Virus record (IMG/VR): IMGVR_UViG_3300012018_000002
Location: 1-64,000 of that record
Length of the DNA: 64,000 nt
DNA from: a virus
Taxonomy: Duplodnaviria; Caudoviricetes
Strand: one strand, 5' to 3'
Made by a program: the position numbers and the translations under genes. This document shows, piece by piece, positions 1 through 56,520 of this stretch; position 1 is the first letter of the stretch, and every line of letters starts with the position of its first letter. Below the pieces are notes generated by a model. It ran no database searches, was not told the DNA's origin, and saw only the letters and a list, made by a program, of their open reading frames with translations.

Positions 1-320
1 TGCTAGATAAACTTTCTAGGACTAGTTCATATAAGGAGCTACCTTATTAAGCTATTGTTTTTATTTTCTCCCAGACTCGACTGAGATTACAGGCTGCGCC
101 ATTCTACGCAGTGGACTTCATTATAATTAACCTAAACTAAACACACCTTAGAAATGTGTTATAATATTTCGTGCGACCTTATTTTAGCAAGTTCTATCCG
201 TATTATTGTTTAGTATTAATCAGTAGTTATTTATTGAGCACCCTCTTGTCTTATACTGGACGGTCAGCTAGTGTAAAAACTGTCGTCAGCCGTAACTTTC
301 ATATAAGAGTAGGGTCACGT

Positions 321-476
321 TTATTGAGCAATATTATTATCTTTAATATATTTATCTCTAGCAGCTTTACATTTTTCAATAGTTTCAAAGTAACCCAATG
401 ATGTGTTTTTACCATTGACTTTTATTTGTTGCCTGTATTTACTAGCTCTTTTTTCTTTAATGTGTTGTTGTGTCAT
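321..476 (-). CDS. Small standalone AP2-like DNA-binding protein (51 aa, not in ORF track)
   Basis: Translates MTQQHIKEKRASKYRQQIKVNGKNTSLGYFETIEKCKAARDKYIKDNNIAQ; the Y.xQI.VNGK...LGYF.T.E....ARD pattern is typical of AP2 domains; start overlaps the stop of the upstream ORF. Confidence 0.6.
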   Translation of the reverse strand: MTQQHIKEKRASKYRQQIKVNGKNTSLGYFETIEKCKAARDKYIKDNNIAQ

Positions 477-1111
477 AATATCTTTGTTATTTTTATTTGG
501 TTGTTTATTACTTTAGGAAACCATTTAGAACCAGAGACATCATTTTTCTCATGAGTATAACTTGAACTATCTTCTTCTAAGAAAAGTTCTTCCATTTCAA
601 CTTCAATATCAAAAACCTTGGGTTGAGATAAGAATTTATTTATAAAGGTAATATAATCATCTTCAGTTACTTTATACCTACCATACTTTTCTCCAGCTTT
701 AAAAGCTGTTTCAATATCTTTTAAAGTAAAATGTTTGAAAAGTTCATTTTGAGCTGCTTTAAAACCTTTAATAAAAGCTTTCCTTTTTCTTGGAGCATTT
801 AAATCAGTATTATATTTATTTGGATTATCTCTATAAGTTTCTAAAGCTAATTTTTCAACATCAATAATACCTAACTGTTCTTCAAATCCATTGAAGTTTA
901 TTGAAGGTAGTTCTGGTAATCCCGATATAATTTTTTTCCACTCAGAAGGACTACCTAAATTAAATCTTTCTAAATTAATACATTTAGAGATATTAGTATG
1001 AGGCATATCAGGTAAATGTTCCTTAGTGTAAATTAAATCTCCTTCTTTTATCTCCTCATCATTTACTATAATAGGAGTTTCGAGCATTATTAGTTGTAGT
1101 TTCATCTCCAT
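473..1111 (-). CDS. Hypothetical phage protein
   Basis: 212-aa ORF in a tightly packed minus-strand run. Confidence 0.7.
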   Translation of the reverse strand: MEMKLQLIMLETPIIVNDEEIKEGDLIYTKEHLPDMPHTNISKCINLERFNLGSPSEWKKIISGLPELPSINFNGFEEQLGIIDVEKLALETYRDNPNKYNTDLNAPRKRKAFIKGFKAAQNELFKHFTLKDIETAFKAGEKYGRYKVTEDDYITFINKFLSQPKVFDIEVEMEELFLEEDSSSYTHEKNDVSGSKWFPKVINNQIKITKIL

Positions 1112-1521
1112 CTTGATTTTTGATACATAACAACTCTAACAACTTCTTCTTGAGTAGCAAATCTATACTCATCTGAAAGTTCTGAATTATTTAACCAATT
1201 AACTAATTTTTGTTTACCGCTACCCTCTTCTCCTTGCCAAATTACTTGTTCATAATTATTAATTTTTGCATCTCTTGCAGTAAAATTACCTAACATTGTA
1301 AAACCATCTGACATATCAGTAAGAGTATAAATTTGATTACCATCACCAATTTTATAATTATTAATAATATAACCTACTTTTTTCATTATGGTAGACAAAT
1401 AACCAGTATCAGAATATCCACTAAAAGGTTTATTGTTCTTTTTTGCATGTAATTCTTCAGGAGACATTCTAACTAAATATTGTCCTGCCCCAGAAAAATC
1501 TTCTATTGTAAAATTTCTCAT
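1102..1521 (-). CDS. Hypothetical phage protein
   Basis: 139-aa ORF overlapping its neighbours. Confidence 0.7.
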   Translation of the reverse strand: MRNFTIEDFSGAGQYLVRMSPEELHAKKNNKPFSGYSDTGYLSTIMKKVGYIINNYKIGDGNQIYTLTDMSDGFTMLGNFTARDAKINNYEQVIWQGEEGSGKQKLVNWLNNSELSDEYRFATQEEVVRVVMYQKSRWR

Positions 1522-1802
1522 ATTTCCAGTTTTAGATTTTCAATGTATGTTGGTTTATTCCATGTTATAAATTTATAATCTTGTCCATGTTCTTTTCCTG
1601 CATCAAATGCTTTCTCAACTACAGGAATTAAAGGAGTTGATTTAGATATTACTTCTTGTATCATTCTGATTTTCCCACTATCTTCTCCAATTATTCTTTG
1701 TAATGGAAAAAAAGAACCACTCTCTTCAGAAAGTTTAGTTTTTAATTCAGTAAGCTTTTTTTCAAGCTCTGTTTTGTTTATAATTATGTATTCGTCTTTC
1801 AT
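1518..1802 (-). CDS. Hypothetical phage protein
   Basis: 94-aa ORF with 4-nt start/stop overlaps. Confidence 0.7.
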   Translation of the reverse strand: MKDEYIIINKTELEKKLTELKTKLSEESGSFFPLQRIIGEDSGKIRMIQEVISKSTPLIPVVEKAFDAGKEHGQDYKFITWNKPTYIENLKLEI

Positions 1803-2200
1803 TGTTTTGATTTTACAAGTTCAATTAATGCTCTTAAACAAGCTAGTTCAGCTTTTTCTTTATTATCTGATATTCTGGTAAATTGATAGGTTTTATAAGC
1901 ATCTCCGGACATTAAAGTATAAATCTCAATATCATAATAAACACTATTAATTCCCTCAATTTTATTAGTTTTAGATTCAGGAAAAGTTACATGTCCATCT
2001 AGTCTATACTTCTCTCTAAACCATCTAAATGCTTGTGAGTATGTTGGGGACATACATATTTGATTATAATACTGGTTGTATTTATTTGTTTGTTGGATTA
2101 TAAAAGACCTGTCATTAAGAAATAAGCCCAAACAAGGTTCATCAAAACCTAATTCTTTTAAAGCTAATGCTTCATCGTATAATATAAAGTCTTTGTTCAT
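1799..2200 (-). CDS. Hypothetical phage protein
   Basis: 133-aa ORF with 4-nt overlaps. Confidence 0.7.
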   Translation of the reverse strand: MNKDFILYDEALALKELGFDEPCLGLFLNDRSFIIQQTNKYNQYYNQICMSPTYSQAFRWFREKYRLDGHVTFPESKTNKIEGINSVYYDIEIYTLMSGDAYKTYQFTRISDNKEKAELACLRALIELVKSKQ

Positions 2201-2508
2201 AATAAATTATTTAAAACATGTTCAATACCTGCTCCTAAAGCTTTCTCTGGAGAATCATAAATAGTCCAGTCTGCTTGAGAAAAGTGATTACTTATTGACC
2301 ATATAAATCCCTTTTTTCCTTCTTTACTGGCATTAAAGATTTTCACCCAGAAGCCGTATTTTTGGTCTATCCAAAATACTACAAGAGCAAATTCTTGAAT
2401 CAAATCTGCTTGTTTAGTTTCTGCACTTGTATAGTCAGGTTTACCTAATACTCTTTTGTTGTGGACAGTATATCCTAATTTCTGAAGTTTTTCAAATAGT
2501 GCTTTCAT
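2197..2508 (-). CDS. Hypothetical phage protein
   Basis: 103-aa ORF in operon. Confidence 0.7.
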   Translation of the reverse strand: MKALFEKLQKLGYTVHNKRVLGKPDYTSAETKQADLIQEFALVVFWIDQKYGFWVKIFNASKEGKKGFIWSISNHFSQADWTIYDSPEKALGAGIEHVLNNLL

Positions 2509-2521
2509 ATTGTTTTATTTT

Positions 2522-3268
2522 TTACCAGTCCCATTTTCTTGGAACTGAAAGATTATAAATATCTTCTATTTCTCCTTTTAAGAATTTAGAAATCTGGTCT
2601 CTTGTATACATTCTATAATTTGAAGCTGGAAAAGAACTTCCATAATTCCAATTTTTTCCTTTAGGTGTCCAACCTTTTTCACGATAATACTGTATATTAA
2701 ATTCTACTTCTGATAATTCAGATATTAAATCAGGTCTTAAAATTCTCTCATGAGTTACCATATGAGGTTTAACTCTAAGTTGAATCCAATAATCAGGAAT
2801 ATCTAATGAAGTATAAAATCTACAATTTTCATTATTACCTAAATAAAATACATCTTTTCTTATTTGAAAATGTTTTTTAACTTGTTCAGGTAAACTATGA
2901 TAAAATTCTAAATTGTATGTTTTATATTGAAAAAGTTGAGGGATACGTAATGATTTATTTTTTCTAGCTTCCTTCCATAAATCTTCTTTAATTGCACTCC
3001 ATGATTTAATCTTTCTACATAATCTAACAAGTCTAATATTATCAGTATGTTCAGGTTTAGTATGATTATCTATTAAATATTTAATTAAAGGATAGTCTTT
3101 TCTATTTTTAATATCATCTCTAACATCTACATAAATATCCCAACCTGATTGATATGGAACTTTAAGTTTTTGAAGAGGTGATTTTCTAATTTTATCAAAA
3201 AGAAAATCTCTTCTTCTACAAAGAGATAAAAACTCTTTTTCCCTTTTTATTTGTTTTTTTAAATTCAT
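2522..3268 (-). CDS. Hypothetical basic protein
   Basis: 248-aa K/R-rich ORF. Confidence 0.7.
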   Translation of the reverse strand: MNLKKQIKREKEFLSLCRRRDFLFDKIRKSPLQKLKVPYQSGWDIYVDVRDDIKNRKDYPLIKYLIDNHTKPEHTDNIRLVRLCRKIKSWSAIKEDLWKEARKNKSLRIPQLFQYKTYNLEFYHSLPEQVKKHFQIRKDVFYLGNNENCRFYTSLDIPDYWIQLRVKPHMVTHERILRPDLISELSEVEFNIQYYREKGWTPKGKNWNYGSSFPASNYRMYTRDQISKFLKGEIEDIYNLSVPRKWDW

Positions 3269-3280
3269 AAGACTAAATTA

Positions 3281-3310
3281 AAAAACCTGCCAGATTACTC
3301 TGACAGGTTT
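3281..3310 (-). terminator. Intrinsic terminator after nrdJ
   Basis: Minus strand AAACCTGTCAG-AGTAAT-CTGGCAGGTTTTTT: hairpin plus U tract. Confidence 0.7.
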
Positions 3311-3337
3311 AACCCAAAAAATGGATTTATTAAAATG

Positions 3338-5278
3338 CTACTTTATAGGACATGCACCTGAATCACAATCTTGTAAATCAAAGTCTTTCTCTTTAATTTC
3401 TACAGAAGTAATAGGTGTTACTTTACTCGCTAATTCAATATACCTTTCTTCAGTTATATCTTCATAAGGAGCTTGTATAAAACCATGTCCTGAATACAAC
3501 ATAAAAGATACAGTTTTAATCTCATCTTTCATGTGTTTTCTTAAATATTCTTTTATTTCTGGTAAATCTTCCAGTTTATAATAAACACTACAGCTTACAG
3601 AGTTATCACTCCAATCAGATTGTAGTTTTCTAACCATGTCCAACTGTTCCTTCCATGTAAAATTAGCAGCTACAGGAGTATCTGATGGAACTCTACAAGG
3701 AAATTCTACTACCATAGTAGTTTTATCTTCTTGTCCATCAAATCCTTTTACTGGTTCCATATAATAACCATGTGTTTTACACACTTCTATTAGTGGAGAA
3801 TTAGATGCAATTCTAACTCTTCTAATGTAAAATGGTCCTGCAGGATTAGGATGAACACCAGGAGTTACTTCTGCTAATAAGGAAAGTGTTCCTGATGGTT
3901 TAACTGTGGTTAATTTAATACTTACAGGAAAATTGTTTTCATGACTATAAGAATCATCATAATCTCTCAACCATTCATAAGCAGGAGATAACCAACTTCT
4001 TTGTTCATCAGTAGCCTGGAGAATACCAGTCATACCTATACCCATTCTCATATTCTTGTTTACAATAGCTTCTGTATCTTTTAAATGACAGTGTAAAGCT
4101 AATGAATGTTTACATATTCTATAAGCATACTCAATACATTCAAGTAATTCATCATAACTTTTTATGTTAGGAAGATATACTTCTGCTAAACAACAAGTTT
4201 CTTTATCTGCTAATCCTTGTTCTGCACATGGATTAAATCCTTCTACATCAGGGTCAGGATAAAAGGTTTGTCCTGTTCTACCTACTTTTTTAGCCAAATC
4301 TAGGTTAATAATTCCATAAGCTTCACCTTTCTCATAAGTTTCCCAATATTCTTTAGGTAAGTCATCCCAGTTATCAGGTATAACTATAGAGTTATTACTC
4401 ATAGCTCTCCAGTTAGGAATACCACCTAAATCCCATCTTTTTGCTCTTAGGAATTCAATATCATCATAATCACCAATAGCTATCTGAGCACTTCTCCTAA
4501 CATTACCAGAAACTACAATAGAACCTATGATATTCATAATATCAAGACAATCTATTGGTCTAAGCTTCTTTCCTGCTCTTAGGTTCAAAATTTCATGTAT
4601 TTGGTTAATACCCTCACACAATTCTTCTGGACCAGAAGCTACCCCACCAAATCCTTTTATAGGAGCACCCTTGCTACGAATGACCATAGTTGAATAAGTA
4701 AATCCTTCTCCATCATAAAAGTGAGCCTTGAGTATCTTATCAAGTAATTTAACCCATCCTTCTCTGTTATCTGGAACTACAAAGTCTACATCAGCTTCGT
4801 CTAATCTTTCAATTTTAATCTTTCTTTTTAGTTTTGGTAGCTGGTAAACATTATGTTTTTGAATGTTATAACCAACTCCAGAGCCTAACATAAGCATTTC
4901 AAATGCCCAGGTAAAAGCTTTAAGGTCGTTTACAACAGTAAAAGCACAATTCTGCAAACTAGGTAATCCTAATTTATCTACTGTTTTTGTGCCCAATTGC
5001 CACATAAATCTACCTGCAACAGAGAATTTTAACTCCTGTCTTAGTGCAGCATACCTAAACTTTTCTTCTTCTGTAAAACCAACACCAAGTTGTTTATCAG
5101 AGGCTTCAATTTCACGTTCAATAACTTGCCAAAACTCTTCAGTTTTAGAGTTTTTGTCTTCTTCTTTTAACCTACGAGCATATGTTCTCTTGAACACAAG
5201 ATACCCAATAGGACCCCAAGGTGTTTTAAATTCGGGGTTTGTATATTTCGCATTTATAACCATAGACACAAGGAACAA
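3338..5278 (-). CDS. nrdJ: Class II (adenosylcobalamin-dependent) ribonucleotide reductase, monomeric RTPR type; true start probably ATG at 5263
   Basis: GRFMW, LQNCAF, GSGVG, NVRRSA, FNPCAE (thiyl-radical Cys), TTVKPSGT, C-terminal CDSGACPIK. Confidence 0.93.
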   Translation of the reverse strand: MFLVSMVINAKYTNPEFKTPWGPIGYLVFKRTYARRLKEEDKNSKTEEFWQVIEREIEASDKQLGVGFTEEEKFRYAALRQELKFSVAGRFMWQLGTKTVDKLGLPSLQNCAFTVVNDLKAFTWAFEMLMLGSGVGYNIQKHNVYQLPKLKRKIKIERLDEADVDFVVPDNREGWVKLLDKILKAHFYDGEGFTYSTMVIRSKGAPIKGFGGVASGPEELCEGINQIHEILNLRAGKKLRPIDCLDIMNIIGSIVVSGNVRRSAQIAIGDYDDIEFLRAKRWDLGGIPNWRAMSNNSIVIPDNWDDLPKEYWETYEKGEAYGIINLDLAKKVGRTGQTFYPDPDVEGFNPCAEQGLADKETCCLAEVYLPNIKSYDELLECIEYAYRICKHSLALHCHLKDTEAIVNKNMRMGIGMTGILQATDEQRSWLSPAYEWLRDYDDSYSHENNFPVSIKLTTVKPSGTLSLLAEVTPGVHPNPAGPFYIRRVRIASNSPLIEVCKTHGYYMEPVKGFDGQEDKTTMVVEFPCRVPSDTPVAANFTWKEQLDMVRKLQSDWSDNSVSCSVYYKLEDLPEIKEYLRKHMKDEIKTVSFMLYSGHGFIQAPYEDITEERYIELASKVTPITSVEIKEKDFDLQDCDSGACPIK

Positions 5279-5374
5279 TTCTAATTAAAGAAAAGTTCCC
5301 TATGTTATAGAGATTAAAAAGCCATCTGGTCAAAGGTTCACCAGGTCACTTAAAGTCAGGAGAGGAACCTCTCT

Positions 5375-5767
5375 TTATCCCTTCTGTTCTCTATAAAAAC
5401 CTGGTCTGTCATCCAGTTTTTTGTCTAGGTTTTCTTGTGTATCTATTAACATCATTAAACAACAACCAGCATGATATAAGTGAGATTTACCACTTTCGGG
5501 GTCATTTTCTTCACCTGAATACCAAGCAGTTAAGTGTCTAAGCATAGCTCCATATAATCTGGAATACTGAATACCATTAGCCCAATTCCAACTTGCATAT
5601 TTCTTAGCTCCAAAAGTGAATATACTTGCTATTCCTCTTAATGCATCAACAGGCAAAAGTTCCATTCTAATCTTATCAGCATCAAACTTTGTTCCACCAG
5701 ATTCTACAAGTTGTTTTTTAGTTTCTTCAATAGAATTAGAAACTTTATAGTCATATGACATTTTCAA
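5375..5767 (-). CDS. dATP/dGTP diphosphohydrolase-like (DUF5664-type) protein
   Basis: GTKFDADK.R..LLP, FGAKKY..WNW, RHL.AW..GE.NDPESG.SHL.HA pattern. Confidence 0.8.
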   Translation of the reverse strand: MKMSYDYKVSNSIEETKKQLVESGGTKFDADKIRMELLPVDALRGIASIFTFGAKKYASWNWANGIQYSRLYGAMLRHLTAWYSGEENDPESGKSHLYHAGCCLMMLIDTQENLDKKLDDRPGFYREQKG

Positions 5768-40651: not shown

Positions 40652-40777
40652 AATATATTATTTTTAAATTAAATTATTAAAAAAGTAAAGCACGGAAAAA
40701 CACTTTACTCGATTTTTAACTAAACTATTTATTATCCCTTTTTAAATGTTTAAATAATTAATTAATATTCCGTTCAG

Positions 40778-41082
40778 TGGACCTGGTGAGATTTGAACTC
40801 ACGTCCAGACAAATTTTCATAAATAGATTTATTCATAGGCTTAGTTTATTCAGGGATAAACTGGGGTTTTTAAGGAATACTCCACCATCTTATTTTTAAT
40901 AGAATAAGAAAACTATTTTGTTAGACTAATTCAGCTTCCACTGCTAAGTTAGCATCAATATATGCTAACACATCGTCTGATGTTGTTGATGATAATTCGT
41001 CATCTAAAAGTTTGCTATTTTAAAGCATAGCTGCTCTACCTAATCTATTTACTGCTATATGCTGTCAATACCTGTCAAGCCC
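40778..41082 (-). ncRNA. ssrA: tmRNA; tag ORF 41001-40921 encodes (A)DELSSTTSDDVLAYIDANLAVEAELV*
   Basis: 5' GGGCTTGACAGGTATTGACAG; 3' GACGTGAGTTCAAATCTCACCAGGTCCA; G3.U70 Ala identity pair; resume codon after TTAGAT. Confidence 0.9.
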
Positions 41083-41181: not shown

Positions 41182-41249
41182 ATAGTAAGGAAAAATCTTC
41201 AGAGTTTTATTTCACCAAAAGAAGTAACTCTAAACAACACCATTACTAT
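41182..41249 (-). ncRNA. Short Y RNA-like element (copy 1)
   Basis: TAGTAATGGTG..AGAGTTACTTC...AACTCT..TTTTCCTTACTA; same motif as the termini of the YrlA-like RNA. Confidence 0.7.
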
Positions 41250-41251
41250 AG

Positions 41252-41324
41252 TATCAGGTATGGGATTTGAACCCATGTGTTTACCGTGAAAGGGCAAAAT
41301 CCTGGACCACTAGATGAACCTGAC
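41252..41324 (-). tRNA. tRNA-Glu(UUC)
   Basis: GTCAGGT/ACCTGAT acceptor, TTGCC-CTTTCAC-GGTAA, ATGGG-TTCAAAT-CCCAT. Confidence 0.9.
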
Positions 41325-41326
41325 AT

Positions 41327-41803
41327 TTATAAATTTAATATTTTTCTGATTTCTGTAGAACTTTCAGGAACTATTACATCAGGTATAACAACTAATTGAC
41401 AACCAAATGTAACCACTTCTTTACCATATACTTTATTAGAGTTTTTAAACATCTTTATTGTGTTTTTATAAACAAAAGGATGCACAAAATCAGCAATACT
41501 TAAATAATTATACATAGTAACTGTTGAATCAACAGAAGTAAGAGATTCAATCATATATGCTCTATCTCTTTCATTAAAAATAGGATTTCTATTCTTATTA
41601 GTATTGATTAAATCATCAGAATCAACAAATACTACAAGAAAATCACATTCTCTTTTACATTTTTCAAGAAATAAAACATGTAATGGATGTAATAAATCAA
41701 AACATCCACTTGTTATACCTATTCTCATATTAGAATCAATTTTGAGCAGTGCTTGTAAACGTGCTCTCAGTATAATCATATCTTCTTGGTTTCTACAAAT
41801 CAT
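41327..41803 (-). CDS. Cytidylyltransferase-like (HxGH family, RfaE/TagD-like) nucleotidyltransferase
   Basis: TSGCFDLLHPLH, L.V.VDSD, RNPIF...R, SSTEIR. Confidence 0.82.
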   Translation of the reverse strand: MICRNQEDMIILRARLQALLKIDSNMRIGITSGCFDLLHPLHVLFLEKCKRECDFLVVFVDSDDLINTNKNRNPIFNERDRAYMIESLTSVDSTVTMYNYLSIADFVHPFVYKNTIKMFKNSNKVYGKEVVTFGCQLVVIPDVIVPESSTEIRKILNL

Positions 41804-41829
41804 AATAAATAGTTTTTTGTTAATAAAAA

Positions 41830-41909
41830 AATAGAAGGAAAAGTAAATATAGCTTGTTTGAGCGAATTTATGAAATTTGCGAAGTAACTATATTAAACAC
41901 CATTCTATT
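41830..41909 (-). ncRNA. Short Y RNA-like element (copy 2)
   Basis: ATAGAATGGTG..ATATAGTTACTTC...AGCTATAT..TTTTCCTTCTAT with compensatory stem changes. Confidence 0.7.
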
Positions 41910-41911
41910 AG

Positions 41912-42037
41912 TAGCGTGTGAAGGATTCGAACCTCCATTTCTCGTTTAAGATACGAAGTAACTTTTCAAATCACCATCATTACTGAGGAAAAGTTAGAAA
42001 AGAAATTTTTAGCGTTCTGCCATTAAACTAACACGCT
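41912..42037 (-). ncRNA. tRNA scaffold whose anticodon arm is replaced by the permuted Y-motif stem (copy 3)
   Basis: AGCGTGT/ACACGCT acceptor, TAGTTTAATGGCAGAAC D-arm, GGAGG-TTCGAAT-CCTTC T-arm; insert CTTTTC..TTTTCCTCA-GTAA-TGATGGTG..GAAAAGTTACTTC. Confidence 0.75.
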
Positions 42038-42040
42038 ATA

Positions 42041-42194
42041 TGAATAAGGAAAGTTAAAAAGAGGCTTTTTTATAAACGTGTTTACCATTTCACCACCTGC
42101 CTCATTGTATTGAAGCAGGACAAGACTCGAACTTGTAAACTCTTACGAGTATTTATTCCGATTTAGAAGTAACTCTTCTTTACACCATTATTCA
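42041..42194 (-). ncRNA. YrlA-like Y RNA (copy 4)
   Basis: Terminal stem TGAATAATGG/CCTTATTCA; internal T-arm ACAAG-TTCGAGT-CTTGT, closed acceptor-like stem CCTGCTTCA/TGAGGCAGG, D-arm TGGTGAAATGGTAAACAC; begins about 5 nt after the Ro60 stop. Confidence 0.85.
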
Positions 42195-42199
42195 AATCT

Positions 42200-43603
42200 T
42201 TATTCCTGTTCTTCAAAGGTATTTGTAATACCTTCATAAACAGAAATATAAGTTAAGAAGTGTTCTGACCAACCTGAAATTTCAGCAGTCCAAACACCTT
42301 CATAATTAATACCATTTTTATGTGCTGACACATCAATAATATAATTAGCAATACCAAATGGATTAGGTTTTGTTTTTACACTATCCATATCCTGAGAATC
42401 ACTAAATACAATAATTCTATCAGGAGTATAATCAATATGTGATTTTATATACTCAAGACATTGGCGAGTAAATATACCACCTCCACCTAATTGAACTCTT
42501 TGTTTTTCAACTTGTTTAATTAAATCAAAACCAGAAGAAGGATTATCAATTCTTGATGTATTGTGTTTTTTGTTAAAACCACTACCTGCAGTGCACCACA
42601 CATCAATCCATTCACACTGATTAACACCTAATAAACACATTGCTTGAGCTACTTTTAATCTAGTATTAGTAGATTTAGAACTAATACCTGAACCCATACT
42701 ACCACTAACGTCAACCACAAAAAGTGTTTTACCAGGTAATTTTTTGAGATAAGAATAAGAAGTAATCATTCCTTGTTCTATTTCTCTCATATACTCTGGT
42801 GCATTTTCAGCAGCACTAAGAAAATTTAAAGGTAAAATCATATTACCTTTCATTTCTTTTAATGCCTTTTTAATTACATTTGAATCAACAAAGACATTTT
42901 TCATATTACGTAAATTACGTAATAATGCAAGTGCTCCAAGTTTATCATTACTAATTAATCTTTCCCAAGTAGCTTTTTTATCTTTACCTGCAGACAATGC
43001 AACTTCCCAAGTATCAGGAACTTTTAATTGTCTTTTTGCAATTCTATCAAATAGACTATATTCTTGAGGATTTCTTGCTTTTGGATGAACCAAAAATAAT
43101 ACATCTCTCAATTTATACTCACCATCTCTATCATATTTTGCAAACTGATATTCATCAAAATTGTGAAATGATTGAGCTAATCCTTTTTTAGCTGCAGCAG
43201 CCATTGGTCTTGCTTTCTTATTAGTGTCTTTCCAATAAATAGCACAGAAATCAGCTAACATATCTGCTCTTGTTATTACTTTTGGTAATAAATCTTTAAC
43301 ATATAATCTATGTGTATCATATTTACACATTTCAGATATGATAAACAAAGGCACATGTCTAAGCTTTTGAACAATTCTACATTCTTCTGCAATTTCTGCA
43401 ACTTTTTTTGCTTCTACTAATGGTATTAACTTAGCAATATTATCAGAGCTACCTGATTCATAAGCTAAATTTTCCCACAATAAACAAGCTAAGACTGCAC
43501 GTCTTAACTGATTTTCAGCAGTTTGTATTGCTGCTTTTGCACCATAACCACCTGCCAGTGTTTCAGCAGGTTTAGGTTTTACGTTAGGGTTTACTTTACT
43601 CAT
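42200..43603 (-). CDS. rsr: Ro60/TROVE-domain RNA-binding protein with vWA domain
   Basis: LR+ P motif, F.EYQFAKY, LRDVLFLVHPK, TWE..LS, ALLRNLRN, VDVSGSM MIDAS, FSD.Q, GWSE. Confidence 0.9.
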   Translation of the reverse strand: MSKVNPNVKPKPAETLAGGYGAKAAIQTAENQLRRAVLACLLWENLAYESGSSDNIAKLIPLVEAKKVAEIAEECRIVQKLRHVPLFIISEMCKYDTHRLYVKDLLPKVITRADMLADFCAIYWKDTNKKARPMAAAAKKGLAQSFHNFDEYQFAKYDRDGEYKLRDVLFLVHPKARNPQEYSLFDRIAKRQLKVPDTWEVALSAGKDKKATWERLISNDKLGALALLRNLRNMKNVFVDSNVIKKALKEMKGNMILPLNFLSAAENAPEYMREIEQGMITSYSYLKKLPGKTLFVVDVSGSMGSGISSKSTNTRLKVAQAMCLLGVNQCEWIDVWCTAGSGFNKKHNTSRIDNPSSGFDLIKQVEKQRVQLGGGGIFTRQCLEYIKSHIDYTPDRIIVFSDSQDMDSVKTKPNPFGIANYIIDVSAHKNGINYEGVWTAEISGWSEHFLTYISVYEGITNTFEEQE

Positions 43604-43890
43604 TTTACTTTCTTTTTAAATCTATCAGTAATGTATTTTTTTACGTGAATTGGATTTCTCATGTAATTGTATAATTGTGTTAACAATTGTCTATCCTGTT
43701 CAAAAGACATTTCTTCTAAAGAAACATCATTTTGTTTTGACCAGATATAAAGACATACACCTCTATGGTCTGATAATCCAGGAACATAACTACATATACC
43801 TATTGAACTATTAGGAATATGTTGTGACACATCATTAGCAAATAATACTGTTTCATGAATGTTTTTTTGTTTAAAAGTAATTCTTACCAT
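43600..43890 (-). CDS. Hypothetical protein coupled to Ro60
   Basis: 96-aa ORF with a 4-nt overlap on the Ro60 start. Confidence 0.6.
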   Translation of the reverse strand: MVRITFKQKNIHETVLFANDVSQHIPNSSIGICSYVPGLSDHRGVCLYIWSKQNDVSLEEMSFEQDRQLLTQLYNYMRNPIHVKKYITDRFKKKVK

Positions 43891-54431: not shown

Positions 54432-55953
54432 AATAATCGTATTCAATCAAGAAGCAAAACAAGCTTTAAAAAGAGGAATAGACAGTCTTGCTAATGCAGT
54501 AAGAGTTACTCTTGGACCAGAAGGTAAGACTGTCATTCTTGCTTCTTATAAAGATAATAAAGCCACTATTACTAAAGATGGTGTGTCAGTAGCAAGACAA
54601 GTGTTCTTAAAAGACCCAGTAGAAAATGCAGCAGCTCAAATAGTTAAAGAGGTAGCTAATAAAACAGCAGAAGATGCTGGAGATGGAACTACCACAGCTA
54701 CTGTTTTAGCACAAGCTTTAATAACTAATTGTATTGATAAGAATTTAACAAGTAAGTTTTTTAAGCAGCTTTTAGAAGATAAAGATGCAGTAATTGAAAA
54801 TATTAAATCTCAATCTAAAAAAATATCTTCTGAAGATACTGTTTCACTGATTAATGTTGCTTCTATATCTGCTAACAATGATAAAGAGATTGGTAAGCTA
54901 GTAGCAGAAGCAATACAAAAAACAGGTAAACATGGAATAGTAACTGCAGAAGAAGGAGATTCTTTTGAGACAAAAATAGTTCTTAAAAAAGGTTTGAATT
55001 TTGAATCTGGTTTTATATCTCCATTATTTATTAATGATACAGATAAGTTAGAATGTGAACTAAGTAACTGTTGTATCTTTATGTATGATGAAGAGTTAAC
55101 TAGAATTGAAGATGTATTACCTCAAATTAGATTTGCAAATGCAAGAAAAAAATCACTGCTGGTAGTTGCACCAGATATACACGGTGATGCATTAAGTGTT
55201 CTTTTAAGTCAGAAAAACCAAGGTTTTAAATGTGCTGCAGTTAAATCACCTAGTTTTGGTGAATATAGAAAATCATTAATGGTAGACATAGCAACATTAA
55301 CTGGTGGTGTAGTTGTTGAATCTCAAAAAAGAGTTAACTTTACTGAACTTTTAGAATCTCATTATGGTTTTGCTGAAAGAGTAATAATCACTAAAGATGA
55401 AACTACAATAGTTGAAGGTAAAGGAAAAACAGAAAAAATAGAGCAAAGAGTAAATCAACTAGAAAAGCAAATTGAGAATACTGGTAATGAATATGAAGTA
55501 AGAATAATGAAAGAAAGAATAGCTAAACTTCAAGGTGGTATTGCTGTAATTAAAGTTGGTGGTTATTCTGAAATTGAGATAAAAGAAAAGAAAGATAGAA
55601 TAGAAGATGCTATCTTTGCAGTTAAAGCAGCTTTATTAGAAGGTATTGTAGAAGGTGGTGGTATTGCTTATTTAAGAGCAAAAGACCTTTGTAAGACAAA
55701 AGAATTACAAGAAGCTCTTTCTACACCATTTGTTCAAATAATGACAAATGCTGGTACATTAGATATTCCTGCTTTACAAAACAATATAGTTCAAAAATAT
55801 ATTCCTGGTATTAATGCTAAAACAGGAAAGATAGTAAACATGTATGATGAAGGAATCATAGACCCATTAAAAGTAACAAGAGTAGCCTTAGAGAATGCAG
55901 TAAGTATTGCTGTAACTTTCTTAACTACTGAATGTATAATTGTAGATGAATAA
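54424..55953 (+). CDS. groEL: Phage chaperonin GroEL
   Basis: VTLGP.G, ITKDGVSVA, AGDGTTTATVLA, ERIAKL.GG.AVIKVG, GIIDP.KVTR.ALENA.S. Confidence 0.96.
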   Translation: MNKIIVFNQEAKQALKRGIDSLANAVRVTLGPEGKTVILASYKDNKATITKDGVSVARQVFLKDPVENAAAQIVKEVANKTAEDAGDGTTTATVLAQALITNCIDKNLTSKFFKQLLEDKDAVIENIKSQSKKISSEDTVSLINVASISANNDKEIGKLVAEAIQKTGKHGIVTAEEGDSFETKIVLKKGLNFESGFISPLFINDTDKLECELSNCCIFMYDEELTRIEDVLPQIRFANARKKSLLVVAPDIHGDALSVLLSQKNQGFKCAAVKSPSFGEYRKSLMVDIATLTGGVVVESQKRVNFTELLESHYGFAERVIITKDETTIVEGKGKTEKIEQRVNQLEKQIENTGNEYEVRIMKERIAKLQGGIAVIKVGGYSEIEIKEKKDRIEDAIFAVKAALLEGIVEGGGIAYLRAKDLCKTKELQEALSTPFVQIMTNAGTLDIPALQNNIVQKYIPGINAKTGKIVNMYDEGIIDPLKVTRVALENAVSIAVTFLTTECIIVDE

Positions 55954-56208: not shown

Positions 56209-56364
56209 ATGGATGAAATAAAAACAAAACTATTGCAACAATTACATCGTGCAATAGAAAGTCTTGAAGGTCAAGATATTAACAATATTGAAGATGTAAA
56301 AAATTTTATGTTTATTATACAACAATCTAGTCAAATTATTAGTGTAATAAATAATTTAAACTAA
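56209..56364 (+). CDS. Small hypothetical protein (51 aa)
   Basis: MDEIKTKLLQQLHRAIESLEGQ...; fills a gap in the tRNA cluster. Confidence 0.5.
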   Translation: MDEIKTKLLQQLHRAIESLEGQDINNIEDVKNFMFIIQQSSQIISVINNLN

Positions 56365-56438
56365 GTGGTGTTTGAAAGAGTTACTTCAACTTTTCTGAAC
56401 AGAGTTACCAAATAAACTCTTTCTATTTTTCCCTTAGT
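56360..56438 (+). ncRNA. Short Y RNA-like element (copy 5) in the late tRNA cluster
   Basis: ACTAAGTGGTG..GAAAGAGTTACTTC...AACTCTTTC..TTTTCCCTTAGT. Confidence 0.7.
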
Positions 56439-56442
56439 ATTT

Positions 56443-56515
56443 AGTTCTGTAGCCCAACGGAAGAGGCACATGCCTTAGGAGCATGATAGTAAGAGTTCGA
56501 GTCTCTTTAGAACTA
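56443..56515 (+). tRNA. tRNA-Leu(UAG) with short variable loop
   Basis: CATGC-CTTAGGA-GCATG, AAGAG-TTCGAGT-CTCTT. Confidence 0.85.
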
Positions 56516-56520
56516 CAATT

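What the first reader, a model, noticed from the sequence alone, without database searches (positions are those of the whole stretch)
41182..43603. Phage Ro60 with a family of at least five Y-like RNAs sharing one stem motif in three architectures
Seen: the bipartite motif 5'-ATGGTG-n-AGTTACTTC ... (A)ACTCT/GCTAT-n-TTT(T)CC-3' recurs at 41182-41249, 41830-41909, 41912-42037, 42041-42194 and 56360-56438. Flanking stems differ in sequence but stay paired (TAGTAA/TTACTA, ATAGAA/TTCTAT, TGAATAA/TTATTCA, CTAAG/CTTAG). Copy 4 has the YrlA layout and abuts the Ro60 stop. Copies 1, 2 and 5 are minimal stems with variable loops. Known: Ro60/Y RNPs act in RNA quality control and stress, typically with one or a few Y RNAs. 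Inference: a modular phage system in which a constant Ro-binding handle carries different loop cargoes (guides, tethers or decoys).
Basis: partly seen in the sequence, partly recalled or inferred. Interest (0 to 1): 0.85.

Follow-up and report, generated by a model that had tools for sequence, protein, structure and literature searches.

The report
Phage Ro60 with five Y RNAs
A crAss-like phage encodes the RNA-binding ring protein Ro60 and five small partner RNAs sharing the handle of bacterial Y RNAs; one is an unusual version built like an ordinary tRNA, with the handle where the anticodon arm should be.

Summary
TGGTG-N8-AGTTACTTC occurs five times in the window (0.1 expected). Each copy has the matching 3' strand and a closing stem of different sequence.

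A covariance model of the module (R1) finds the same element in clusters beside Ro60 genes:
- crAss001 and other crAss-like phages;
- Caulobacter phage CcrColossus (8 hits) and a Xanthomonas phage (5 hits);
- 80 bacterial Ro60 loci, with 211 hits, all on the Ro60 strand.

The handle matches the published YrlA features in degenerate form: GGYG for GNCGAA, and UUAC for YUAY. These are Y RNAs of the known YrlA/YrlB kind. Five copies is not exceptional.

Copy 4 has the YrlA layout and copies 1, 2 and 5 are YrlB-like hairpins set flush against tRNA genes. Copy 3 has normal tRNA order, with a free acceptor stem and the handle as a capped hairpin in the anticodon-arm position. This form recurs in at least five phage lineages, including cultured crAss001, and in none of the bacterial loci. 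I found no description of it.

Rfam's YrlA model does not match. Ro60 binding and expression are untested, and the "guide" idea found no support. This scan has already reported Ro60 with handle-sharing RNA arrays on other phage DNA.

The parts
42200..43603 (-). Ro60 (TROVE + vWA) gene, 467 aa
   Evidence: Pfam TROVE scores 63.3 bits against a cut-off of 23, with a weak VWA_2 match. PHROG 850 'RNA-binding protein'. Full-length match to Thermus phage phiLo Ro60, PDB 9KOP/9L5Y, E 1.6e-13. 53.7% identical to the crAss001 TROVE protein.
42041..42194 (-). Y RNA copy 4, YrlA layout. Order: handle 5' strand, V hairpin, T arm (UUCGAGU loop), closed 9-bp acceptor-like hairpin, D arm (AAUGGUA loop), A-rich tract, handle 3' strand.
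   Evidence: R1 scores 42.8 bits, E 1.9e-9; this copy was not a seed. MFE fold -37.2 kcal/mol, z -3.0. Sequence read.
41912..42037 (-). Y RNA copy 3, 'class T'. Order: 7-bp open acceptor stem, D arm, handle 3' strand, UCA-GUAA-UGA cap, handle 5' strand, UACUUC, V-like hairpin, T arm, acceptor 3' strand, discriminator A. No anticodon loop.
   Evidence: The Rfam tRNA model scores 43.7 bits with a 68-nt insert in place of the anticodon arm. ARAGORN calls no tRNA here. R2 scores 102 bits, though this copy was a seed. Pair counts on 11 class T RNAs: 92% of cells paired against 54% or less when slid, and all 7 acceptor pairs covary.
41830..41909 (-). Y RNA copy 2, a minimal hairpin (YrlB-like). It starts 2 nt (CU) after the discriminator of copy 3.
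   Evidence: R1 scores 55.9 bits; this copy was a seed. Fold z -2.9.
41182..41249 (-). Y RNA copy 1, a minimal hairpin. It starts 2 nt (CU) after tRNA-Glu.
   Evidence: R1 scores 61.1 bits; this copy was a seed. Fold z -2.6.
56360..56438 (+). Y RNA copy 5, a minimal hairpin. It lies 12.8 kb from Ro60 on the other strand and ends 4 nt before tRNA-Leu in the tRNA array.
   Evidence: R1 scores 63.1 bits; this copy was a seed. Fold z -2.2. tRNA-Leu is at 56443-56516.
41251..41324 (-). tRNA-Glu(UUC), which punctuates the operon directly 5' of copy 1.
   Evidence: ARAGORN. Rfam tRNA 52.5 bits.
56443..56516 (+). tRNA-Leu(UAG), directly 3' of copy 5.
   Evidence: ARAGORN. Rfam tRNA 56.1 bits.
41327..41803 (-). 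158-aa adenylyl/cytidylyltransferase-family ORF lying between copy 2 and tRNA-Glu. No role in the system is shown.
   Evidence: Pfam CTP_transf_like 42 bits. NCBIfam TIGR00125 51.6 bits. I saw no such ORF at the corresponding place after the arrays of L008 or crAss001.
43600..43890 (-). 96-aa ORF of unknown family. Its stop overlaps the Ro60 start by 4 nt, so it is probably co-translated.
   Evidence: ORF list. No Pfam, PHROG or NCBIfam hit.

Best explanation
The locus is a phage Ro60 ribonucleoprotein module. Ro60 and at least five Y RNAs are made from transcripts in which the RNAs are interleaved with tRNA genes, one tRNA-like Y RNA and a tmRNA.

Each Y RNA carries the same handle, in this order:
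- a closing stem of free sequence;
- a bulged U;
- a GG/CC pair;
- an internal loop starting YG on the 5' side and ending in a U run on the 3' side;
- a roughly 7-bp covarying helix;
- the invariant UACUUC, opposite an A-rich tract.

This handle is homologous to the Ro60-binding module of bacterial YrlA and YrlB. It is the part that the phage Ro60 ring binds (inferred).

The variable part differs by copy:
- a tRNA-like domain with a closed acceptor (copy 4);
- the same domain in normal tRNA order with a free acceptor end (copy 3);
- short AU-rich loops (copies 1, 2 and 5).

By analogy with Yrn1, YrlA and phiLo Yrl, the variable part would gate Ro60 or tether it to different host partners, such as PNPase or tRNA-binding enzymes (inferred).

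Every minimal copy sits 2-4 nt from a tRNA or from copy 3. Host RNase P and the tRNA 3'-end processing enzymes (such as RNase Z) probably cut the RNAs out of the precursor (inferred).

Shown here: the elements, their covarying structure, their homology to the YrlA handle, and their genomic tie to Ro60. Not shown: transcription, processing, Ro60 binding, partners.
For: Motif statistics: 5 matches against 0.1 expected, and none elsewhere in the 112-kb record.

Structure:
- Minimal elements from many phages keep the helices while changing sequence (table).
- On 88 distinct R1 matches, the outer stem plus GG/CC is 96% paired, with all four Watson-Crick types at each stem position. The first G:C switches to A:U in 17 sequences.
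- The covariation score is 0.77, against 0.22 for shuffles and 0.20 or less when slid.

Association with Ro60:
- All 28 R1 hits in 11 related phage loci cluster beside Ro60 on its strand.
- In the whole records of crAss001, G003 and G004, hits occur only at the Ro60 locus.
- There are 8 hits upstream of the CcrColossus Ro60 and 5 upstream of the Xanthomonas phage Olaya Ro60.
- There are 211 hits in 80 bacterial Ro60 loci, every one on the Ro60 strand.

Homology to YrlA:
- Relatives read GGCGAAG, an exact GNCGAAG, or GGUGAAG/GGCGUAG at the position of the window's GGUGUUN.
- UUAC fits the YUAY that starts the V loop (PMC4201824).
- The published M. smegmatis YrlA-5' probe implies UUACCACUUCUAAUGG, close to L013's GGUUACUUCCACUUAUAAUGG.
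- CcrColossus is named as a phage with published Y-like RNAs (PMC12135203).

tRNA features of copies 3 and 4: U8-A14, a GG D loop, a UUCGARU T loop, and an A15:U48 Levitt pair where other class T RNAs have G15:C48.

Precedents: D. radiodurans Yrn2-tRNA-Asp-Yrn1 is one precursor, and M. smegmatis YrlA is cut by RNase P and gains CCA. phiLo Ro60 binds two phage Yrl RNAs and host PNPase. The crAss001 TROVE gene is an early gene.
Against: - There are no expression, end-mapping or binding data for any of these RNAs.
- Rfam YrlA (RF02553) gives no match in this genome even at E 10.
- The strict GNCGAA motif is not present in the window's five copies.
- Copy 5 is 12.8 kb from Ro60 on the other strand.
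- Five phage fragments of 11-100 kb carry R1-type elements but no TROVE gene in the contig. All are only 12-35% complete.
- The two closest Ro60 relatives (L006, L012; 26% and 12% complete) have no R1 hit in the fragments held.
- The phage record (64% complete) has no PNPase/RNase PH, RtcB or CCA-adding enzyme, so any partner must come from the host.
Confidence: 0.78

Rival explanations
1. The repeats act at the DNA level, as promoters, terminators or operator sites of the phage transcription system, and are not stable RNAs.
For: They are intergenic, and the minimal copies are followed by U-rich runs. crAss-like phages use unusual promoters that the sigma-70 scan cannot see.
Against: Compensatory changes keep three helices paired across hundreds of copies, which is selection on RNA rather than DNA. 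The same element sits beside Ro60 in phages and bacteria with unrelated transcription systems, always on the Ro60 strand. Two of the forms carry complete tRNA-like domains.
Confidence: 0.03
2. They are structured RNAs, but their partner is not Ro60. They could be tRNA-operon spacers or processing signals, or tRNA mimics that work with another protein.
For: Every copy abuts a tRNA or a tRNA-like element. Copy 5 lies in the tRNA array, far from Ro60. Five phage fragments have the element without a TROVE gene. Earlier notes of this scan describe Ro60-independent tRNA-mimic RNAs with other partner proteins (untested here).
Against: In three whole phage records the element occurs only at the Ro60 locus and not at other tRNA genes. 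In the window's own record only copy 5 lies away from it. All 211 hits in bacterial Ro60 loci are on the Ro60 strand. The handle matches the experimentally defined Ro60-binding region of YrlA. The TROVE-less contigs are 12-35% complete.
Confidence: 0.1
3. Copy 3 is a real tRNA gene interrupted by an intron or an inserted minimal Y element, and it matures into a decoding tRNA.
For: The Rfam tRNA model scores it at 43.7 bits, with perfect acceptor, D and T arms.
Against: There is no anticodon stem-loop on either side of the insert; positions 27-31 and 39-43 give only 2 bp in the window copy. The insert has the handle strands in the order 3' strand, cap, 5' strand. That is the reverse of what insertion of a minimal element would give. 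No group I or bulge-helix-bulge features are present, and Rfam gives no intron hit. The same layout is conserved in 11 RNAs from at least 5 phage lineages, with covariation inside the 'insert'.
Confidence: 0.03

Closest known systems
Bacterial YrlA (Salmonella Typhimurium, Mycobacterium smegmatis; Chen et al. 2014, PMC4201824; structure in Wang et al. 2018, 10.1101/312249; Rfam RF02553)
   Same: It is encoded next to Ro60 on the same strand. The 5'/3' stem carries a Ro60-binding motif near the 5' end, with YUAY at the start of the V region. The tRNA-like domain runs T arm, closed acceptor hairpin, D arm. Copy 4 has all of this.
   Different: The window's handle reads GGUG(U/A)(U/A) rather than GNCGAA. 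The Rfam YrlA model does not match. The acceptor-like hairpin is 9 bp. The host is a crAss-like phage.
YrlB (Salmonella, M. smegmatis) and Yrn2 (D. radiodurans): hairpin Y RNAs without a full tRNA domain
   Same: Copies 1, 2 and 5 are simple hairpins that keep the Ro60 handle. They are co-encoded with a tRNA-like Y RNA and with tRNAs, as in the Yrn2-tRNA-Asp-Yrn1 precursor.
   Different: The phage copies keep the invariant UACUUC and an A-rich tract and have 14-27-nt AU-rich loops. The known ones are described as long hairpins with small pyrimidine-rich loops. One copy lies 12.8 kb away in the tRNA array.
D. radiodurans Yrn1
   Same: It is a Ro60-bound Y RNA with its tRNA-like elements in the order D-like, anticodon-like, T arm, which is the same order as copy 3.
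   Different: In Yrn1 the 5'/3' ends form the Ro60-binding stem in place of the acceptor stem. In copy 3 the ends form a true 7-bp acceptor stem, and the Ro60 handle is a capped hairpin in the anticodon-arm position.
Thermus phage phiLo Ro60 with Yrl1/Yrl2 and host PNPase (PMC12135203; PDB 9KOP, 9L5Y)
   Same: It is a phage-encoded Ro60 with more than one phage-encoded Y-like RNA beside the gene. The protein aligns full-length to the window's Ro60.
   Different: phiLo has two stem-bulge-stem RNAs found through a CGAA motif, with no tRNA-like forms reported. Binding is shown there and not here.
[quoted passage not shown]
   Same: They show that a Y RNA can present an open, CCA-bearing acceptor end, and that tRNA-shaped RNAs exist in permuted gene orders.
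   Different: Copy 3 has the open acceptor encoded directly in one continuous RNA. No cleavage inside the RNA and no ligation would be needed.

Membership tests
Ro60 / Rsr protein (TROVE + vWA) | A TROVE domain above Pfam's cut-off, followed by a vWA/MIDAS domain, with full-length similarity to a solved Ro60. | tested here: met
   TROVE scores 63.3 bits against a cut-off of 23. VWA_2 is weak at 19 bits, below its cut-off of 27. Residues 21-456 align to phiLo Ro60 (9KOP/9L5Y), E 1.6e-13.
YrlA-type Y RNA (criteria of Chen et al. 2014) | Encoded within 4 kb of the Ro60 gene on the same strand. | tested here: met
   Copies 1-4 lie 5-1020 nt downstream of the Ro60 stop on the minus strand. Copy 5 does not meet this: it is 12.8 kb away on the plus strand.
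YrlA-type Y RNA (criteria of Chen et al. 2014) | A GNCGAAN0-1G motif near the 5' end. | tested here: not met
   The window copies read GGUGUUG, GGUGUUU (twice), GGUGAUU and GGUGUAA at that position. A graded series links them to the motif: GGCGAAG in L013 and L060; GGUGAAG, GGCGUAG and GGUGUAG in other phage and bacterial loci.
YrlA-type Y RNA (criteria of Chen et al. 2014) | A conserved YUAY at the start of the V loop, about 10 nt after the Ro motif. | tested here: met
   UUAC is present in all five copies at a fixed distance, as UGGUG-N8-AG-UUAC-UUC.
YrlA-type Y RNA (criteria of Chen et al. 2014) | A tRNA-like domain in the order V, T arm, closed acceptor stem-loop, D arm. | tested here: met
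   Only copy 4 meets this. Copy 3 has the same parts in the order acceptor 5', D, handle, V, T, acceptor 3'. Copies 1, 2 and 5 lack the domain.
YrlA-type Y RNA (Rfam RF02553) | A score at or above the gathering threshold (69 bits) of the curated covariance model. | tested here: not met
   There is no match in the whole 112-kb record at E up to 10, and none in the region scan at E up to 10. Sixteen related Ro60 loci gave only tRNA and tmRNA hits at gathering.
Y RNA in general | Physical binding to Ro60, and Ro60-dependent accumulation. | not testable with these tools
   This needs RIP, EMSA or Northern blots. Only the genomic association was tested.
tRNA (for copy 3) | A cloverleaf with an anticodon stem and a 7-nt anticodon loop. 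| tested here: not met
   The acceptor, D and T arms are present (Rfam tRNA 43.7 bits), but 68 nt replace the anticodon arm. ARAGORN does not call it.

The most novel reading that the evidence does not exclude
The tRNA-order form (copy 3 and its relatives in crAss001 and other phages) may be matured like a tRNA: RNase P at the 5' end, 3' trimming and CCA addition. It would then present a free acceptor end while Ro60 sits on its 'anticodon arm'. That would make it a Ro60-tethered tRNA mimic. It could dock the Ro60 ring onto machinery that reads the CCA end or the tRNA elbow. Alternatively it could soak up host anti-phage toxins that attack tRNA acceptor ends. Y RNAs with a closed acceptor could do neither.
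Probability: 0.2. Interest if true: 0.8.

Novelty: new variant of a known kind. Interest (0 to 1): 0.55.

Why it matters
Ro60/Y RNA particles are a conserved RNA-surveillance system whose bacterial and phage roles are poorly understood. Four points follow from this work.

- CrAss-like phages are among the most abundant viruses of the human gut. They carry a full Ro60 module with four to six unannotated Y RNAs. In cultured crAss001 these lie in the roughly 900-nt "empty" gap after gp96, an early gene, so the system is open to experiment.
- The tRNA-order Y RNA is a natural counterpart to the closed-acceptor YrlA. It bears on two published ideas: that YrlA descends from tRNA dimers, and that an open CCA end can matter for Y RNA function.
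- One simple covariance model of the handle recovers hundreds of Y RNAs that Rfam's YrlA model misses, including arrays of 8 to 12. That would improve annotation and correct at least one mis-called tRNA.
- The practical stakes are modest. This extends a known system rather than revealing a new one.

Tried and rejected
- Rfam. No Y_RNA or YrlA hit at gathering or at E up to 10. The low-scoring snoRNA and Tymo-tRNA-like hits on copy 1 are chance.
- My first hand-written pairing detector was too lenient. It "found" a partner strand for 32 of 59 control hits without Ro60. I dropped it in favour of covariance models.
- Exact-pattern scan of IMG/VR. It returned 118 stretches, a mix of real elements and chance matches inside genes. 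It was useful only after Ro60 and R1 filtering.
- The class T model R2 gives 45-69-bit false positives at junctions of tandem YrlA arrays, for example L030, L083, L173 and L155. They lack acceptor pairing and have long spacers. Only hits with a short cap and a paired acceptor were accepted.
- Marginal R1 hit at 55695-55734(-), E 0.02. Its surroundings show no RNA features, so I treated it as chance.
- Guide hypothesis. The longest antisense matches of the three minimal loops to the phage genome are 11-12 nt, the same as for shuffled loops. An earlier run was invalid because each loop matched its own locus. The host genome is unknown, so host targets were not tested.
- tRNA-with-intron reading of copy 3: rejected (see the rival explanations).
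- Partner enzymes in the phage. No RtcB, CCA-adding enzyme or RNase PH/PNPase domain was found.
- Promoter and terminator scan: uninformative.
- The supplement of PMC4201824 (YrlA alignments and the phage table) is not held, and the 2020 Annual Review is not held. I therefore could not check which CcrColossus RNAs were already published.
Full report
WHAT IS THERE

The window is part of a 112,765-bp crAss-like phage record. Its TROVE gene is 53.7% identical in protein to that of Bacteroides phage crAss001. On the minus strand the order is:
- a 96-aa ORF (43890-43600);
- Ro60 (43603-42200; Pfam TROVE 63 bits; full-length match to Thermus phage phiLo Ro60);
- a 5-nt gap;
- copy 4 (42194-42041);
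- a 3-nt gap;
- copy 3 (42037-41912);
- a 2-nt gap;
- copy 2 (41909-41830);
- a 158-aa nucleotidyltransferase-family ORF (41803-41327);
- tRNA-Glu (41324-41251);
- a 2-nt gap;
- copy 1 (41249-41182);
- a tmRNA-like gene (41082-40775).

Copy 5 (56360-56438, plus strand) ends 4 nt before tRNA-Leu in the phage's tRNA array.

IS THE REPEAT REAL?

Yes. TGGTG-N8-AGTTAC(TTC) occurs five times, against 0.10 expected, and 0 of 100 shuffles reach five. It occurs nowhere else in the record.

Read on the transcribed strand, every copy has these parts in order:
- a closing stem of 5-7 bp of unrelated sequence;
- a bulged U;
- GG paired to CC;
- an internal loop (YG-N4 opposite N4-6 plus a U run);
- a 5-9-bp helix that covaries between copies;
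- the invariant UACUUC;
- an A-rich tract before the returning strand.

Minimum-free-energy folds of each copy on its own give this same architecture, with z-scores of -2.2 to -3.0.

COMPARATIVE EVIDENCE

Nine IMG/VR loci encoding relatives of this Ro60, plus crAss001, cr112_1 and cr106_1, were fetched. A relaxed form of the motif occurs in two to six copies next to Ro60 in ten of the twelve loci. In the three GenBank phages these copies lie in gaps of 520-900 nt that carry no annotation.

I aligned 28 diverse minimal elements (A1) and built covariance model R1. R1 gives the following results.
- It finds copy 4, which was not a seed, at E 1.9e-9. It finds nothing else credible in the 112-kb genome.
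- In 11 related loci all 28 hits cluster beside Ro60 on its strand.
- In the complete crAss001 record and two other long phage records, hits occur only at the Ro60 locus.
- On 88 distinct matches from a wider set of phage contigs, the outer stem plus GG/CC is 96% paired, with every Watson-Crick type at each stem position. G:C switches to A:U at the first GG/CC pair in 17 sequences. The covariation score is 0.77, against 0.22 for shuffles and 0.20 or less for slid controls.
- Helix 2 scores lower (69%). This is partly because the seed alignment was off by one column in some rows. The hand-inspected table shows it as a clean 7-bp helix.

HOW GENERAL IS IT?

R1 finds 8 elements upstream of Ro60 in Caulobacter phage CcrColossus and 5 in Xanthomonas phage Olaya. 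PMC12135203 names CcrColossus as a phage with published Y-like RNAs.

In 80 Ro60 loci from bacterial genomes, mostly Acidobacteriota and including Granulicella mallensis and Bryocella elongata, R1 finds 211 elements. Every one is on the Ro60 strand, and one locus has 12.

So the handle is the general Ro60-associated module of this large Ro60 clade, and multi-copy arrays are common.

RELATION TO KNOWN Y RNAS

Chen et al. 2014 define YrlA by four features: proximity to Ro60, a GNCGAAN0-1G motif near the 5' end, a YUAY that opens the V loop, and a tRNA-like domain ordered T arm, closed acceptor, D arm.
- The window's UUAC is that YUAY, at the right distance.
- GGUG(U/A)(U/A) occupies the place of GNCGAA. 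Relatives bridge the gap with GGCGAAG, GGUGAAG and GGCGUAG.
- The published Northern probe for M. smegmatis YrlA implies UUACCACUUCUAAUGG, close to the phage consensus after the handle.
- Copy 4 has the full YrlA layout.
- Copies 1, 2 and 5 correspond to the hairpin class (YrlB, Yrn2).
- Co-transcription with tRNAs is known for D. radiodurans.
- Rfam's YrlA model (RF02553) nevertheless gives no match here at E up to 10.

I therefore file these as homologues that work like YrlA/YrlB, not as members of the curated Rfam family.

THE TRNA-ORDER FORM

Copy 3 is hit by the Rfam tRNA model at 43.7 bits, with a 68-nt insert where the anticodon arm should be. Read through, its parts are:
- acceptor 5' strand;
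- D arm;
- A-rich linker;
- helix 2 3' strand (CUUUUC);
- UAAC;
- UUUUCC;
- a UCA-GUAA-UGA cap;
- UGGUG;
- helix 2 5' strand (GAAAAG);
- UUACUUC;
- a small V-like hairpin;
- T arm;
- acceptor 3' strand;
- discriminator A.

This is the YrlA fold opened at the acceptor and closed at the handle.

The same layout occurs in L008, L009, L014 (twice), crAss001, cr112_1, cr106_1 and L038. A model built on these (R2) also recovers a non-seed example, L158, at 90.9 bits.

On 11 such RNAs 92% of cells are paired, against 54% or less when slid. All seven acceptor pairs and three T-stem pairs covary. The caps covary too: UCA/UGA, ACA/UGU, GUU/GAC, CGG/CCG. The Levitt pair is A15:U48 in the window and G15:C48 elsewhere.

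None of the roughly 70 bacterial loci has a true example. The R2 hits of 45-69 bits there are junctions between neighbouring YrlA units, which naturally show the order D arm, handle 3', handle 5', T arm. This suggests that class T arose by a register shift in a tandem YrlA array (inference).

The literature I could search describes YrlA as resembling a circularly permuted tRNA with a closed acceptor. It notes that M. smegmatis YrlA is opened by RNase P and receives CCA. I found no description of a genetically encoded open-acceptor form.

FUNCTION

Nothing here is measured. The best-supported reading has three parts.
- The phage Ro60 binds the handle.
- The RNAs are released by host tRNA-processing enzymes, because each abuts a tRNA or copy 3.
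- The variable modules recruit host partners, as shown for Yrn1 with PNPase and for phiLo Ro60-Yrl with PNPase.

The phage record (64% complete) encodes no PNPase, RtcB or CCA-adding enzyme. In crAss001 the TROVE gene is an early gene, so the particle probably acts at the start of infection. A guide role finds no support within the phage genome.

CAVEATS

- Copy 5 is remote from Ro60.
- Five incomplete phage fragments have the element but no TROVE gene.
- The two closest Ro60 relatives are short fragments without hits.
- E-values from my models are rough, and seeds match by construction.
- Alignments fitted to a model lean towards its structure. The slid-partner controls and the independent tRNA-model hits mitigate this.

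EARLIER NOTES OF THIS SCAN

Notes on the same genome already flag the permuted copy 3, which I saw and tested independently. Other follow-ups report Ro60-like proteins with handle-sharing RNA arrays in other phages, including a crAss-related one. I did not test those. One of them supplied the accession RF02553, which I then ran.

VERDICT

The RNAs are Y RNAs of the YrlA/YrlB kind in a crAss-like phage, which makes them new members of a known kind. One architecture, recurrent and so far phage-specific, is a new variant. Interest is moderate.

Noticed in passing
window 40775-41082 (-): A tmRNA-like gene (Rfam RF00023, 52.9 bits against a gathering score of 47) lies about 100 nt downstream of Y RNA copy 1 on the same strand. 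ARAGORN did not call it. cr106_1 has an annotated tmRNA a few kb from its TROVE gene.
   Followed up: no
L015 (crAss001, MH675552.1) locus 4100-5008, record about 95,965-96,870: The roughly 900-nt unannotated gap downstream of the TROVE gene gp96 holds several unannotated elements. These are two minimal Y RNAs (R1, 60 and 53 bits) and one class T RNA (4591-4734). A probable second class T with an odd D arm (4341-4479; R2 43 bits) has its own CCC-GAA-GGG cap. One more handle-like 5' strand lies near the end. cr112_1 and cr106_1 have the same arrangement.
   Followed up: partly
L151 (Caulobacter phage CcrColossus, NC_019406.1) locus 3619-3686: The annotated 'tRNA-Gln' overlaps an R1 hit (3615-3779). 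It reads as the handle 5' strand plus V region plus T arm of a YrlA-type element, so it is probably a mis-called tRNA. Eight R1 hits fill the 1.2 kb upstream of the Ro60 gene.
   Followed up: partly
L164 (Acidobacteriota MAG 'Candidatus Angelobacter'), locus 235-3507: Twelve R1 hits lie in a row upstream of Ro60, on the same strand. Many other acidobacterial loci have 4-6. Arrays this long are larger than the 'at least two Y RNAs' described in the papers I could read.
   Followed up: no
L046, L088, L032, L092, L034 (IMG/VR fragments of 11-100 kb): These fragments hold R1-type or handle-bearing elements, yet no TROVE domain is detectable anywhere in the contig. All are only 12-35% complete. Either Ro60 lies far away, as for copy 5 here, or the element can exist without it.
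   Followed up: partly
window 41250-41251 and 41910-41911 (-): The junctions tRNA-Glu/copy 1 and copy 3/copy 2 are alike: discriminator A, then CU, then A(A)UAG(U/A)AAUGGUGUU. This suggests that the 'tRNA plus minimal Y RNA' pair was duplicated as a unit.
   Followed up: no
L153 (Rhizobium phage RHph_TM21B), Ro60 at 3887-5455: This Ro60 locus sits inside a tRNA array and gives no R1 hit at E up to 1, although R2 gives weak tRNA-like hits upstream (2879-3593). Its Y RNAs, if any, use a different handle.
   Followed up: no
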